DNA of 64,000 nt, taken from Eledone cirrhosa. Taxonomy: Eukaryota. The position numbers and the translations under genes were made by a program. Positions 34,353-39,382 of this stretch are shown piece after piece. The notes below the pieces were generated by a model that was not told the DNA's origin, ran no database searches, and saw nothing but the letters and a program-made list of their open reading frames with translations. The stretch is taken from positions 286,812,001 to 286,876,000 of the forward strand of contig OZ024741.1 of assembly GCA_964016885.1 (NCBI GenBank), written 5' to 3'. Positions within the stretch are counted from its first letter, which is position 1. Every line of letters begins with the position of its first letter.

Positions 34353-34419
34353 TATTTTATCTGATGAAAGCGCACCAAAACTGCATTGGTTGCCCTTGAA
34401 ATATATATATAATAAAATA
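34353..34419 (+). ncRNA. Type I hammerhead (family H), intact core
   Basis: UAUUUUAU-CUGAUGA-AAGCGCACCA...UGGUUGCCCUU-GAAA-UAUAUAUA-UA^AUAAAAUA. Confidence 0.8.
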
Positions 34420-34530
34420 ATTATGGTTTTATAAATATAGTTTCCATTTATTAATATATTGAATTGTATATATATATATATATATATATATATATATATA
34501 TATATATATATATATATATATATATATATA

Positions 34531-34848
34531 TAATATAAGATCAAAAGATGGTTAAAGGAGTTCCATATATTTTATTATGCGCATTTCAAAAACAAACATC
34601 ATCATGCAATAATATTTGTGTTTTCATCAGATAAAATAGGAGAACATGATATGAAGGCTAAAAAACACTTGTGGATAGTGCAGTTTTAAATCAACATGCA
34701 CTATCCACAAGTGTTTTTTAGCCTTCATATCATGTTCTCCTATTTTATCTGATGAAAACACAAATATTATTGCATGATGATGTTTGTTTTTGAAATGCGC
34801 ATAATAAAATATATGGAACTCCTTTAACCATCTTTTGATCTTATATTA
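34531..34848. repeat. Near-perfect 152-bp-arm fold-back carrying a hammerhead on each strand
   Basis: Arms 34531-34682 and 34697-34848 with a 14-nt loop. Confidence 0.92.
34741..34811 (+). ncRNA. Type I hammerhead (family H), intact core; mirror copy at 34568-34638(-)
   Basis: UAUUUUAU-CUGAUGA-AAACACAAAUAU...AUGUUUGUUUUU-GAAA-UGCGCA-UA^AUAAAAUA. Confidence 0.82.
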
Positions 34849-36251
34849 TGCATACTCCAGTCCCACAAACTGTAGAGTGCTTCTTATCCGATATCTGCAT
34901 TGCTTTATTGTACTACAATAAAACTCACCTCCTACATTATATATATATATATATATAGTTTCCATTTATTAATATATTGAATTGTATATATGTATATATA
35001 TATATATACACACATAAATTAATAAAAACAATGAATAAAAACAAAGAAACAGTTCCTTATATTAAAAGATTCATCATTTTACGATCGTTTCTAGGATATA
35101 TATGTGTGTGTTGGTATGTATATCATATAGATCTATGTAAAAATTTTACAAACTATCATAACTACATATATATATGCTGTCTTCAGATATAATTATATAT
35201 AATTATATACTAATCTAATAATCTATATACACACACACATATATATATATATATAGAAGCCATTTCTGTATTAAAAAATTATACTCTGCTATGTATTGAG
35301 TACCTTACTTACTGTGGTTACTCCCGATTAAACCCAGGATACACACACACACACACACACACACACACACACACACACACACACACACACACACACACAC
35401 ACACACACACACACACGCACACACACACACACACACACACACACACACACACACACACACACACACACACACACACACACACACACACACACACACATAT
35501 ATATATATATATATATATACTGTTGGCTTCTTGCTACAATACTTTCTATACCTTTCATTTACGAACATATATATATATGTGTGCATGTATGTATATATAT
35601 ATATACATACTACTGTACGTCTGTATACATATATGTATGTACGTGTACATACTTATATTTAAGTAACAGCCGTACTAAGAGTGGGAAATAAAATTTCGTT
35701 TCATTTTTTCCGTTTATATATATATATATATATATATATATATATATATATATATCGTTTCTGAATTTGTTTAGCAAGATTCTTTATCTGAAAACGTGTG
35801 TTGAAACCGATATTGTTATACTTTGGGAGGGTCATGTTGCCAATAAGAAACACACGCACCAGTTGCTTTCACTTCAATTTATTATAATACATTTATAAAT
35901 TTAGGAATTTATAAATTTCCGGTTGGTTGGTTGGTTCCATAATCAGATGGTTGTTTATATATTGTCAAAGTTCTTTCGTCACACATTCTGTGACCTCTTC
36001 AGTGACTGGGGATTCTTTTCTTTGTTTTTGTGCCTCTCCTTTGTTCTGTCCTACGCCATTTTGTTTCTGTGTGTGTGTTGTGTGTCTTGCTAATAAGTGT
36101 TTTTACGGAGGTACCTGGTCTTTCTACTATCTTAATATTGAGTTTATGTTTGTCTAGGGCCCTTCTAAATTTGTAAGCTAATTCACCTCTAGGGGTTGTA
36201 TCGATGAACATTACACTCTGGTATTTATTGCTATCATACCATGCATGGTAT

Positions 36252-36799
36252 GATAAATACCAGAGTGTAATGTTCATCGATACAACCCCTAGAGGTGAAT
36301 TAGCTTACAAATTTAGAAGGGCCCTAGACAAACATAAACTCAATATTAAGATAGTAGAAAGACCAGGTACCTCCGTAAAAACACTTATTAGCAAGACACC
36401 CTTTTCAAAGACCCCCTGTATAGATAAGAAATGTAAAACCTGTAAATTAAGCCCCCATATTAACTGTAAAACTAGAAATGTAGTATATAGCATAAGATGT
36501 ACTGAAGGACAATGTAGAGACAAAAATATAGTGTACATAGTTGAGACAGCTCGTAGCCTAGGGGAACGATAAATGAACACTGGCGAGACCTTCAAGATAG
36601 TAAAGAATCATCTATACTCTACCAACATGCTAAAATAGAACATAAGGGTAAATTAGAGAACATAGAAATAAAAATAGAATCTACACACAGAAAAGACGCA
36701 ATGTTTAGACAAATCACAGAGGCAATAAACATAAAAGAATTACAACCAAAATTAAATAGAAAATATGAGTGGAACAGCAACATCACAACTTACAATTAA
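36252..36799 (+). pseudogene. GIY-YIG endonuclease of Penelope-like element (one frameshift near 36570)
   Basis: KIVERPG..C-x4-C-x2-C..CKTRNVVYSIRC..VYIVETARSLGER, then (frameshift) INEH..HAKIEH..RQITEAINI..PKLNRKYEW. Confidence 0.85.
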
Positions 36800-37000
36800 G
36801 GACAAAATGAAAACACACACGCACATAGAACAAACAACCAACCTGTAACATGTAAATAAACAAATAAATAAACGAATATAAACACACACAGACACCCGGA
36901 TGTGGCACATGCGCAGACTGACCACACAACACACACACAGAAACAAAATAGCGTAGGACAGAACAAAGGAGAGGCACAAAAACAAAGAAAAGAATCCCCA

Positions 37001-37043
37001 GTCACTGAAGAGGTCACAGAATGTGTGACGAAAGAACTTTGAC
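37001..37043 (+). ncRNA. Hammerhead in the PLE pseudo-LTR; mirror copy at 35964-36006(-)
   Basis: GUCA-CUGAAGA-G-GUCACA(GAAUG)UGUGAC-GAAA-GAAC-UU^UGAC. Confidence 0.8.
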
Positions 37044-39321
37044 AATATATAAACAACCATCTGATTATGGAACCAACCAACCAACCGGAAATTTATAAAT
37101 TCCTAAATTTATAAATTTATTATAATAAATTGAAGTGAAAGCAACTGGTGCGTGTGTTTCTTGTTGGCAACATGACCCTCCCAAAGTATAACAATATATA
37201 TATATATATATACATACATATATACACACACATATATACACATACACAAATGCCCAAGAAGTGCTGTATGGCATGACAATGAAACTACGACTCCCCGATA
37301 ACTTCTAAATTTAACGTTGAAAAATAGAGGTGGATGCAGGTTTGTGTAATTGGTCTAGCAAATTTACATGGACAATAAGAGGTGTGGGTTCGATTCTCAG
37401 GCCTGTGATGCCCATTTTTTTTTCTTTTGAGGTTTTATATATCATGTTATTTAACTATTTTCTGTAGTCAAAATACGATGAAAGCTTATATTCTATTTTC
37501 AATGTTTTCAATTGCCGCCGTATTCTAAAGCACACGTGCATATTTACACATACACACACACAGATATATATAATATATATATAATATATATAAATATATA
37601 TAAATATATATATACACATACATATATATATATATATATACATATATATATATATATATATATATATATATATATATATATATATATAGAGAGAGAGAGA
37701 GAGAGAGATTTATATAGATACAAAACATAGAGAAAACAGGGAGTAGGACACAGATAAAACGTGTCAGAGAAACTAAAAAAGCGAGAGAGAGAGGGAAGAG
37801 AGAGAGAGTATAAAGATGAAGATGATGATGATGATGATGATGTGGATGAGGAGAGGATGACAGGGCTGTAGAATAGAGAATGATAGAAATAGAATGAAGG
37901 GAGGAGTGGGTAAAGTGGAATTCGGTCTGGCATGTGGCTCGGATATATAAACACACATAGATCAATTGAATGTCAGCTCTTCTTCTATACGTTATCACCT
38001 TATCTGTGGTGGCAGTAATTTGCTATCCAAGAATAAAACAAAATACTATTTTTTTTTTCTTTCGTAAAGCACTATTTCTCGCTACGTTCTTTTCATATCG
38101 TCCTTGTTTTATAATTTTGACTAGTTACAGTCATTATACTGCGCCCGTGCTGGAGTACCACTGCCTTCAAGGGATTTTTGTTGTTGATTATATTGGCGAC
38201 ACCAGAGCTTATTTTTTTATTGTTATTATTTTTAATTTGGGTCCTATTTTATCGATTTCTTTTTGTCGAACTGCTATTAACAGAACATAAACATGCAGTA
38301 AATATATATATATATATATATATATATATATATATATATATATATATATATATATATATATATATATAGGAACGAGTAGGACCCCGACGGCTGAGCTCAA
38401 GCCGTTTCGACGGTTAATTCTGGACTAAATGAACATTTTTATCCTGGTACATGAATAGCCGAGCTTCTGGTCCATCTGGTTCCTTACCACATTTCCTTCG
38501 TTATATATATATATATATATATATATATATATATGTATGTATGTATGTGTGTGTGTGTACAGTTGTCCCCCGGTATTCGCGGGGATTACGTTCCTAGAGC
38601 AACCACGAAGAGTGAAAAACCGCGAATATTGGACGTAGCTCATAAAAATGCCTATAAACGTCAAAACATAACGTACAATTTAGGCCGGTAAATACGGTAC
38701 ATTGTTATTAATAATTTAGCGTTAAAAAGCGTGAAACCACGAAAAAAGCCATTAAAAAATTGCGGAAGATATGATTCCGTGAATATGCAGTGGTTTCCAC
38801 GAACAATTATTAATCAGGTTCTAAGGAACCCTTAAAAGACGGAAAAAGAAAGTCTTTTAAGGGCCTTCACCCTACTTTATTTTATAGCATCTTTATACAT
38901 GAGTACATCATCCCAGGAGCAGTGGAAGTATTTCTGATTTGGGGGTGGGGATTTCGTCAATTTAGTTATAGTTTAGTTGCTCTTTAAAATGGTCAGAAAA
39001 CTTTGATATGCGATAAATATAACATGTATATAAATTGTAGCGCATATCCAAATAGATTTGGGTTTTGATAGTTTGGGGAGAAAATATAATTATTGGAAGG
39101 GGCAAACTCCCCCTCCAATTCCACCGACACTATATATTTATAATTTTAAAAAATGATGCGTGTGCCCTTTCCTAAGGGGTTAATATATCGAGCTTCTTCG
39201 CATTTGATAAGAAACTGGTATTATACCCAATTTATTCACTTCATATATATTGACTATCTTCAATGAACTTATAACATGAAGTTCACATGAAGATATGTCA
39301 CTATCTTTACACCAATTATTG

Positions 39322-39382
39322 TATTTTATCTGACGAAAGCGCACTAAAATATTAGTACCCTTGAAATACGTATAATAAAATA
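39322..39382 (+). ncRNA. Type I hammerhead (family H), intact core
   Basis: UAUUUUAU-CUGACGA-AAGCGCACUAA(AAUA)UUAGUACCCUU-GAAA-UACGUA-UA^AUAAAAUA. Confidence 0.82.

What the first reader, a model, noticed from the sequence alone, without database searches (positions are those of the whole stretch)
34353..39382. Stem III covaries to stay palindromic, the signature of dimeric hammerheads
Seen: within family H stem III is UAUAUAUA (34353), UGCGCA (34741) or UACGUA (39322), with identical 8-bp stem I and different but paired stem II. Other families use AUCGAU, CCAUGG, CCGCGG, CUAG or CG. Established: hammerheads with very short palindromic stem III cleave as dimers. Inference: selection for activity in tandem or multimeric transcripts, and evidence that these motifs are not chance matches.
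Basis: partly seen in the sequence, partly recalled or inferred. Interest (0 to 1): 0.7.

Follow-up and report, generated by a model that had tools for sequence, protein, structure and literature searches.

The report
Palindromic hammerheads of Penelope retroelement fragments
These are scattered hammerhead-ribozyme motifs, likely the 3' ends of truncated Penelope-type retroelements, whose third stem is a short palindrome that differs between families; the pattern is real but already published for animal genomes, and it is predicted to favour cutting as a pair.

Summary
Type I hammerhead cores at 34353, 34741 and 39322 share an identical 8-bp stem I and carry stem III inserts UAUAUAUA, UGCGCA and UACGUA. 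A descriptor blind to stem III found 15 motifs in the window against 0.19 expected. Of 13 independent insertions, 8 are Watson-Crick palindromes (2 of 28 control hits; p=4.5e-4), and the central two bases, which a monomer cannot pair, are complementary in 10 of 11 even-length inserts. UACGUA versus UAUAUAUA is also a CpG-decay path, and stem II is imperfect and closed by A-U. The setting looks like Penelope-like elements (PLEs): 5'-truncated, inverted, (TA)n-targeted fragments, and one neighbouring hammerhead sits 202 nt after a broken GIY-YIG-like ORF. No same-family tandem pair exists here, and two H copies are predicted to be sequestered by their inverted copies. Selection likely acted on progenitor elements, and these copies are likely fossils. 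A palindromic helix III is the published consensus for metazoan PLE hammerheads (PMC4209133). Two-pair-plus-tetraloop invertebrate hammerheads can cleave as monomers, so dimer cleavage is predicted, not shown. Ordinary; low interest.

The parts
34353..34419 (+). H1a type I hammerhead; stem III insert TATATATA (34402-34409); predicted cut after 34411 (AUA triplet)
34230..34285 (-). Inverted 5' fragment of H1a, copy of 34405-34460 (55 of 56 identical); begins 7 nt before the predicted cut site, inside stem III
34436..34472 (+). H1a 3' terminus running into (TA)n; first copy of an exact 37-bp duplication
34954..34990 (+). Second copy of the 37-bp duplication; the pair brackets the H2 insertion (target-site-like or tail duplication, inferred)
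34525..34682 (-). Inverted arm of H2 holding a mirror hammerhead at 34568-34638 (156 of 158 identical to the direct arm)
34741..34811 (+). H2 type I hammerhead; insert TGCGCA (34796-34801); predicted cut after 34803; direct arm 34697-34854
34855..34940 (+). H2 3' extension present on the direct arm only, ending in (TA)n (PLE-type one-sided tail, inferred)
39322..39382 (+). H1b type I hammerhead; CTGACGA core; insert TACGTA (39367-39372); predicted cut after 39374; predicted extended stem I; (TA)n 59 nt downstream
25165..25226 (-).
33512..33608 (-). J1 hammerhead, 62-nt helix II region, insert CGATTG (palindrome with G.U)
35073..35193 (-). J2 hammerhead, 88-nt helix II region, insert CGATCG, one mismatch in stem I
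36240..36799 (+). Broken C-terminal endonuclease of a PLE (GIY-YIG-like, CxxC/CCHH-type cysteines; frameshift near 36570), with inverted copies on the minus strand at 35810-36228
37001..37043 (+). Family P hammerhead 202 nt after the endonuclease stop; non-palindromic insert GAAC; mirror copy at -35964-36006

Best explanation
The three motifs are intact type I hammerhead cores with a palindromic stem III, likely left as the 3' ends of 5'-truncated Penelope-like retroelements, and the palindrome was likely kept by selection in the parent elements because it is predicted to let two copies on one tandem transcript form a double hammerhead and cut. Shown: core nucleotides, stem I, palindromes centred on A15.1-U16.1, excess over chance, inverted and (TA)n-linked insertion structure, and one neighbouring hammerhead just 3' of a GIY-YIG-like ORF remnant. 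Predicted by computation: closing helix III as a monomer costs energy, while the homodimer gains an 8-10-bp helix III. Inferred: a PLE origin for family H itself (no ORF is attached to any H copy); dimer dependence acting as a switch, so that a lone 3' ribozyme stays uncut and is copied into DNA, as every intact genomic copy spanning the cut site implies; and these particular copies being inactive fossils.
For: Blind descriptor 15 versus 0.19 hits; relaxed long-stem scan 13 versus 0.59. WC palindromes in 8 of 13 insertions versus 2 of 28 controls, p=4.5e-4. Central dinucleotide complementary in 10 of 11 even-length inserts, p=1.7e-5. Permuting 3' halves among 10 inserts (one per family; H1a, H3 and the 20196 hit left out) gave 0.89 paired versus 0.30, 0 of 100000. 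Eight 6-nt inserts (7 distinct) gave 28 of 28 cells paired, covariation score 1.107 versus 0.240, 0 of 500 shuffles; slid controls 14-39% paired. Monomer helix III closure costs +1.7, +2.9 and +2.0 kcal/mol for H1a, H1b and H2; the homodimer gains -8.8, -4.5 and -10.7 over two best monomers, and for H1a its energy equals the cofold minimum. (TA)5+ lies within 400 nt of the cut in 15 of 16 motifs versus 38% of random positions. Inverted arms. PLE endonuclease remnant: 534 relatives at E<=1e-3, best 1.6e-25; nearest Atlas clusters eukaryotic, some GIY-YIG. The same architecture is published: PMC4209133 (palindromic helix III, shrimps and mosquitoes included; consensus 'GAAAN Palind NU H') and PMC8557442 (inverted 5'-truncated copies, one-sided tails, (TA)n targets).
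Against: No cleavage data. No H copy is linked to an ORF: tblastn with 150 PLE homologues hit only 35993-36850 and 625-972. The only ORF-linked hammerhead (P) is non-palindromic. 3 of 13 insertions are non-palindromic, including H3. The rows were chosen by insert length, which excluded the non-palindromic cases, and its measure 'pairs with a change on both sides' was not above shuffles (210 of 500). The families are related and no test was corrected for phylogeny. Family H lacks G10.1-C11.1, and folding z-scores are null. In C, G and J1, monomer closure is about neutral (+0.9 to -0.7), and B (CG) gets no dimer gain (+5.5) in the same model. The Pfam matches of homologues are weak (GIY-YIG 2 of 16, RVT_1 2 of 16, all below curated cut-offs). 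In an Anolis PLE, cleavage needed protein, was dispensable for insertion in vitro, and no reads ended at the cut site (PMC11167929).
Confidence: 0.75

Rival explanations
1. Facultative monomers: the motifs cleave as single hammerheads with a 2-3-bp helix III plus tetraloop, helped by loop 1/loop 2 contacts or by the element's protein. The palindrome only adds an optional dimer route or is inherited.
For: PMC7229834: a 2-bp-plus-tetraloop helix III is 'similar to invertebrate HHRs', a coral monomer cleaved at about 0.8 per min, and the axolotl 2-bp variant gave 22% as a monomer. PMC11167929 reports protein-assisted cleavage. H1b is predicted to have an extended stem I with internal loops. C, G and J1 close helix III at about no cost.
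Against: Complementarity of the central bases (10 of 11), useless to a monomer, is kept across unrelated sequences. The axolotl 2-bp variant still cleaved much better as a dimer.
Confidence: 0.3
2. Within family H the 'covariation' is mostly neutral decay: TACGTA to TATGTA to TATATA by CpG deamination, then TA slippage, so H1a is not a compensatory change.
For: The window CpG o/e is 0.67. H1b/H1a also differ as CTGACGA/CTGATGA. A partial H-like copy near -24688 reads TATGTA. A J-type inverted pair reads CGATCG on one arm and CGATTG on the other, which indicates post-insertion decay.
Against: The inverted fragment of H1a reads the same TA version, so the change likely predates this insertion (2 informative bases only). 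Decay cannot produce TGCGCA, CCATGG, CCGCGG, ATCGAT or CTAG, and many palindromes keep a central CpG despite CpG depletion.
Confidence: 0.3
3. Family H is a non-autonomous retrozyme or SINE-like derivative that makes small circular RNAs, rather than truncated autonomous PLEs.
For: H copies are short (about 150-250 nt) and carry no ORF. bioRxiv 10.64898/2026.07.22.740005 (abstract and introduction seen) argues that animal retrozymes derive from PLE pLTRs and often occur as monomers.
Against: No tandem array contains a whole hammerhead (TRF). The helix sizes are not the canonical 6/4 bp. The copies are 5'-truncated and inverted like PLE insertions.
Confidence: 0.15
4. The palindromes are by-products of fold-back or template switching, or chance in an AT-rich, (TA)n-rich genome.
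For: The window is full of fold-back inversions, and (TA)4 is common.
Against: The palindromes are centred on the A15.1-U16.1 axis in many families, most are GC-containing, and both motif counts and palindrome fraction exceed composition-matched controls.
Confidence: 0.03

Closest known systems
PLE-associated type I hammerheads with a small palindromic helix III (Cervera & de la Pena 2014, PMC4209133; Lunse, Weinberg & Breaker 2017, PMC5785218, seen only as title and via reviews)
   Same: Type I core, palindromic insert between GAAA and UH, larger helix II, dispersed solo copies and opposite-strand pairs 100-700 bp apart, many divergent families per genome. Their Fig. S3 (read from PDF text, layout-dependent) already lists 4-8-nt palindromes that differ between families of one species (Aedes UA-CGCG-UA versus UA-GGCC-UA), as well as CUAG and CG.
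   Different: Family H has an all-AU 8-bp stem I, a 26-36-nt imperfect helix II closed by A10.1-U11.1 rather than G-C, and no clear extra base after position 9. Other families here have 51-88-nt helix II regions. These are differences of detail.
Double-hammerhead ribozymes of newt/axolotl satellite repeats and ASBVd(+)
   Same: Short helix III with a palindromic loop, rescued by an intermolecular helix (PMC7229834 and PMC6466107 passages).
   Different: Those sit in tandem or multimeric RNAs. The copies here are solo or inverted and have 2-3 possible monomer pairs.
Metazoan non-LTR retrozymes (PMC7229834; bioRxiv 10.64898/2026.07.22.740005)
   Same: Type I hammerhead, AT-rich, non-coding short repeats.
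   Different: No tandem 150-450-bp units with a hammerhead in each, and helix sizes are not canonical.
C-terminal EN+ PLEs, Neptune/Nematis-like (Craig et al. 2021, PMC8557442)
   Same: Inverted 5'-truncated copies, one-sided tails, microsatellite targets; family P has an extra CxxC-type motif before a C-terminal GIY-YIG-like domain followed by a hammerhead.
   Different: The clade was not tested by a tree. Family H has no ORF in the window, and the H2 tail (about 85 nt) is longer than the 30-40 bp described.

Membership tests
Type I hammerhead ribozyme | Core CUGANGA, GAAA, NUH in type I order | tested here: met
   exact in H1a, H1b, H2 and H3; triplet AUA
Type I hammerhead ribozyme | Helix I closing the motif | tested here: met
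   8 bp in H1a, H1b and H2; 6 bp in H3
Type I hammerhead ribozyme | Helix II paired | tested here: met
   Paired but imperfect: 3 bp, a mismatch, then further pairs
Type I hammerhead ribozyme | Match to an Rfam hammerhead model at gathering score | tested here: not met
   only a tRNA; none among the 150 of 252 matches listed. The cause (probably the short stem III) was not tested.
Type I hammerhead ribozyme | Self-cleavage at NUH | not testable with these tools
   Needs in vitro transcription
Metazoan PLE hammerhead (PMC4209133 consensus) | Palindromic 15.2-16.2 and loop 3 | tested here: met
   The 3 named copies yes, H3 no; 8 of 13 window-wide
Metazoan PLE hammerhead (PMC4209133 consensus) | G10.1-C11.1 and an extra base between 9 and 10.1 (typical, not universal) | tested here: not met
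   Family H closes with A-U; G-C closings occur in A, B, C1 and P
Dimer-cleaving hammerheads | Double-hammerhead fold more stable than monomers | tested here: met
   nearest-neighbour prediction only: -8.8, -4.5, -10.7 kcal/mol
Dimer-cleaving hammerheads | A compatible second copy in tandem on the same transcript | tested here: not met
   no H pair with matching helix III; H heterodimers are 4-15 kcal/mol worse than mean homodimers
Dimer-cleaving hammerheads | Dimer-dependent cleavage kinetics | not testable with these tools
   Needs a monomer versus tandem assay
Penelope-like element | RT plus GIY-YIG ORF upstream of the hammerhead-bearing 3' repeat | tested here: inconclusive
   Endonuclease remnant present for family P; absent next to all H copies, which are short and truncated
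Penelope-like element | 5'-truncated and inverted insertion structure with one-sided tail | tested here: met
   H1a, H2 and P
Penelope-like element | 3' end in or next to (TA)n | tested here: met
   55, 59 and 43/134 nt for H1a, H1b and H2; 15 of 16 motifs within 400 nt versus 38% random
Non-LTR retrozyme | Tandem 150-450-bp units each with a whole hammerhead | tested here: not met
   four arrays with period >=60; none holds a whole motif
Non-LTR retrozyme | Circular RNA expression | not testable with these tools
   No RNA data

The most novel reading that the evidence does not exclude
The stem III palindrome works as a family-specific partner code. Co-resident lineages such as H1 and H2 share an identical stem I, so they could cross-pair, but they carry different palindromes. 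Only self-dimers from an element's own tandem transcript would then cut efficiently, and nested insertion of one family into another (H2 inside H1a) would not trigger cleavage. Computed heterodimers are 7-15 kcal/mol less stable than the mean homodimers among H1a, H1b and H2. I did not meet this idea in the papers read; searches were not aimed at it, and the Lunse 2017 text was unavailable.
Probability: 0.1. Interest if true: 0.5.

Novelty: new member of a known kind. Interest (0 to 1): 0.17.

Why it matters
It confirms that this genome is dense in PLE-type hammerheads (15 exact-core motifs in 64 kb) that Rfam thresholds miss, and it gives natural palindrome variants for monomer, homodimer and heterodimer assays. 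The role of PLE hammerheads in transposition is still open (PMC8557442, PMC11167929), but these dead-looking fragments do not make that question more testable than published elements do.

Tried and rejected
Rfam at gathering and E-value thresholds gave no hammerhead; the low-complexity miRNA matches were rejected as microsatellite artefacts. Single-strand folding z-scores were uninformative. Pfam gave nothing on the endonuclease pieces themselves, and the word-indexed protein search of longer proteins found 0 of 43 candidates; the unindexed phmmer search then found relatives. A motif search in six frames and tblastn found no ORF remnant beside any H copy. The direct-repeat scan of 33400-39600 was dominated by (TA)n and showed no H tandem. 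Palindrome-first hits without a good 5' core (+3636 CGCGCG, +16231 TACGTA, -51595 ATCGAT, others) were not counted in the statistics because their selection is circular. One-mismatch cores were not used for counts because controls give 3.8 per window. No complex or structure prediction was relevant. PMC5785218 is not held.
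Full report
Setting. The window is AT-rich animal-type DNA (GC 0.26-0.55 in 2-kb bins) with 97 tandem arrays, 5534 bases in microsatellites, LINE-type RT and Tc1-like remnants and many fold-back inversions. The organism was not determined.

Observation. The three motifs are exactly as described: TATTTTAT-CTGA(T/C)GA-helix II-GAAA-insert-TA-ATAAAATA, with inserts TATATATA (34402-34409), TGCGCA (34796-34801) and TACGTA (39367-39372). Three qualifications apply. First, H is not one family: H1a and H1b are 83% identical over 179 nt, while H2 and a fourth motif, H3 (-25165-25226), share mainly stem I and the core. 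Second, H3 has a non-palindromic insert. Third, helix II is imperfect and closed by A-U. Rfam found no hammerhead, and monomer folding energies are unremarkable (7 of 7 z-scores between -1.34 and +1.11).

Chance. A descriptor that put no condition on stem III found 15 exact-core motifs against 0.19 in 150 composition-matched resamples; a second, long-stem version found 13 against 0.59. After dropping two mirror copies, 8 of 13 inserts are Watson-Crick palindromes and 2 more pair with G.U, against 2 of 28 control hits (p=4.5e-4 for WC). Eleven of 13 are of even length, and 10 of those 11 have complementary central bases, which a monomer hairpin cannot pair (p=1.7e-5). Permuting halves among 10 inserts (H1a, H3 and the 20196 hit dropped) gave 0.89 versus 0.30, 0 of 100000. 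Eight 6-nt inserts, chosen by length and hence without the non-palindromic cases, gave 28 of 28 paired cells and a covariation score above all 500 shuffles; the count of doubly changed pairs was not above shuffles (210 of 500). None of this is corrected for relatedness. The signal is strong across families and weak within H. TACGTA, TATGTA (partial copy near -24688) and TATATATA form a CpG-decay and slippage series (CpG o/e 0.67), and a J-type inverted pair shows such decay directly. Against pure post-insertion decay, the inverted fragment of H1a carries the same TA reading.

What the elements are. H1a has an inverted copy of its own 3' part just upstream (34230-34285). H2 is a 158-bp inverted pair with a one-sided 3' extension, bracketed by an exact 37-bp duplication of the H1a terminus. 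Fifteen of 16 motifs have (TA)5+ within 400 nt downstream of the predicted cut, against 38% of random positions. Between H2 and H1b lies another inverted insertion (family P), whose hammerhead follows a broken endonuclease ORF by 202 nt. Its first piece has 534 relatives at E<=1e-3. Of 16 longer relatives scanned, 2 match GIY-YIG and 2 match RVT_1 weakly, and the nearest Atlas clusters are eukaryotic, some GIY-YIG. These are the PLE hallmarks described in PMC8557442 (passages seen). No ORF remnant lies beside any H copy, so the PLE origin of H is inferred from structure. A retrozyme array was tested for and not found.

Mechanism. In nearest-neighbour terms, closing helix III in a monomer costs 1.7-2.9 kcal/mol for the three named copies, whereas a double hammerhead is 4.5-10.7 kcal/mol better than two monomers. 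The non-palindromic H3 and P gain nothing (+14.0, +2.8), nor does the 2-nt CG type (+5.5). The likely role is conditional cleavage of tandem PLE transcripts, with lone 3' ribozymes left uncut; every intact genomic copy spans the cut site, so its template was uncleaved or religated (inference). The copies here are poor candidates for activity. No same-family, same-strand pair lies closer than 4.9 kb for H, and that pair differs in its palindrome. Read-through RNA is predicted to bury H2 in a -253 kcal/mol hairpin and the H1a cut site in a long duplex.

Comparison. Cervera & de la Pena 2014 (PMC4209133; main text parts 1-2 of 4 and supplement parts 1-2 of 3 read) list the palindromic nature of 15.2-16.2 and loop 3 as evidence against randomness, give the consensus 'GAAAN Palind NU H', show 4-8-nt palindromes differing among families of one species, and report only low dimer activity in vitro. 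Reviews PMC6765202 and PMC6466107 (passages) repeat the dimer model and cite Lunse et al. 2017, which was not held; its text and supplements may already contain H-like variants. PMC7229834 (passages and part 2 of 6) shows that 2-bp-plus-tetraloop helix III types can cleave as monomers to varying degrees. PMC11167929 (passages) found a PLE hammerhead protein-assisted and dispensable for insertion in vitro. bioRxiv 10.64898/2026.07.22.740005 (part 1 of 5; supplements closed) links retrozymes to PLE repeats. The hammerhead position numbering and the reading of the cysteine motifs as PLE zinc-finger-like rest partly on my own knowledge.

Verdict. A real, statistically supported feature and a correct general reading, but an already published property of a known class. 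Family H is a new member with minor structural quirks. Dimer-dependent cleavage is predicted, not shown, and cannot be tied to these copies. Interest 0.17.

Noticed in passing
window 49308-49681 (-), 50193 (+), 23868 (-): A repeat family ending in CTGATGA-AGGACT directly before (TA)n or T-rich sequence: only the first half of a hammerhead core, with one 177-bp x2.1 tandem. A GAAA lies about 25 nt upstream but no permuted fold was found by eye.
   Followed up: partly
window 34285, 24688 (-), 3222-3240, 25226 (-): Several 5'-truncation or inversion breakpoints fall inside or at the edge of the hammerhead (stem III, just before GAAA, or start of stem I); reverse transcription may stall or switch there. 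Few cases, untested.
   Followed up: no
window 21658-21707 (+) and 21496-21537 (-): Family E, an inverted pair with an 8-nt insert CATTAGTG that is self-complementary only through G.U pairs; A.A mismatch at the base of helix II.
   Followed up: partly
window 22307, 21658, 33512, 35073: Several families have a mismatch (U.U, A.A, C.A) at positions 10.1/11.1, and C, G and J have 51-88-nt helix II regions, much longer than published PLE examples seen.
   Followed up: no
window 625-972 (-): Fragment of a PLE-type reverse transcriptase (tblastn E=4e-14 to homologues of the family P protein), about 430 nt downstream of the ATCGAT hammerhead on the same strand but separated by other repeats.
   Followed up: partly
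window 44547-44656, 38370-38500: Repeat family forming a near-perfect long hairpin at 44547; it contains GAAACGG and CTGAG words but no canonical hammerhead.
   Followed up: no
window 48199 (+), 15500-15680 (-), 41590-41750 (-), 37248: Degenerate hammerhead-like family (GGGC...GCCC-TA-GAAA-CGC...), too decayed to score.
   Followed up: no
window 25611-27470 and 10274-11400: Family C complex tandem/inverted insertions of up to 900 bp (about 79% identical to each other); the mirror copy at -25883-25970 has a core mutation.
   Followed up: partly
window 52975-55317 (-), 55761-56423 (-), 57437-58939 (+), 4086-4649 (-), 44280-44352 (+): LINE-type RT with zf-RVT and an endonuclease piece, an RT with a PHD-finger match, a Tc1-like transposase fragment, and a tRNA-like sequence.
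   Followed up: no
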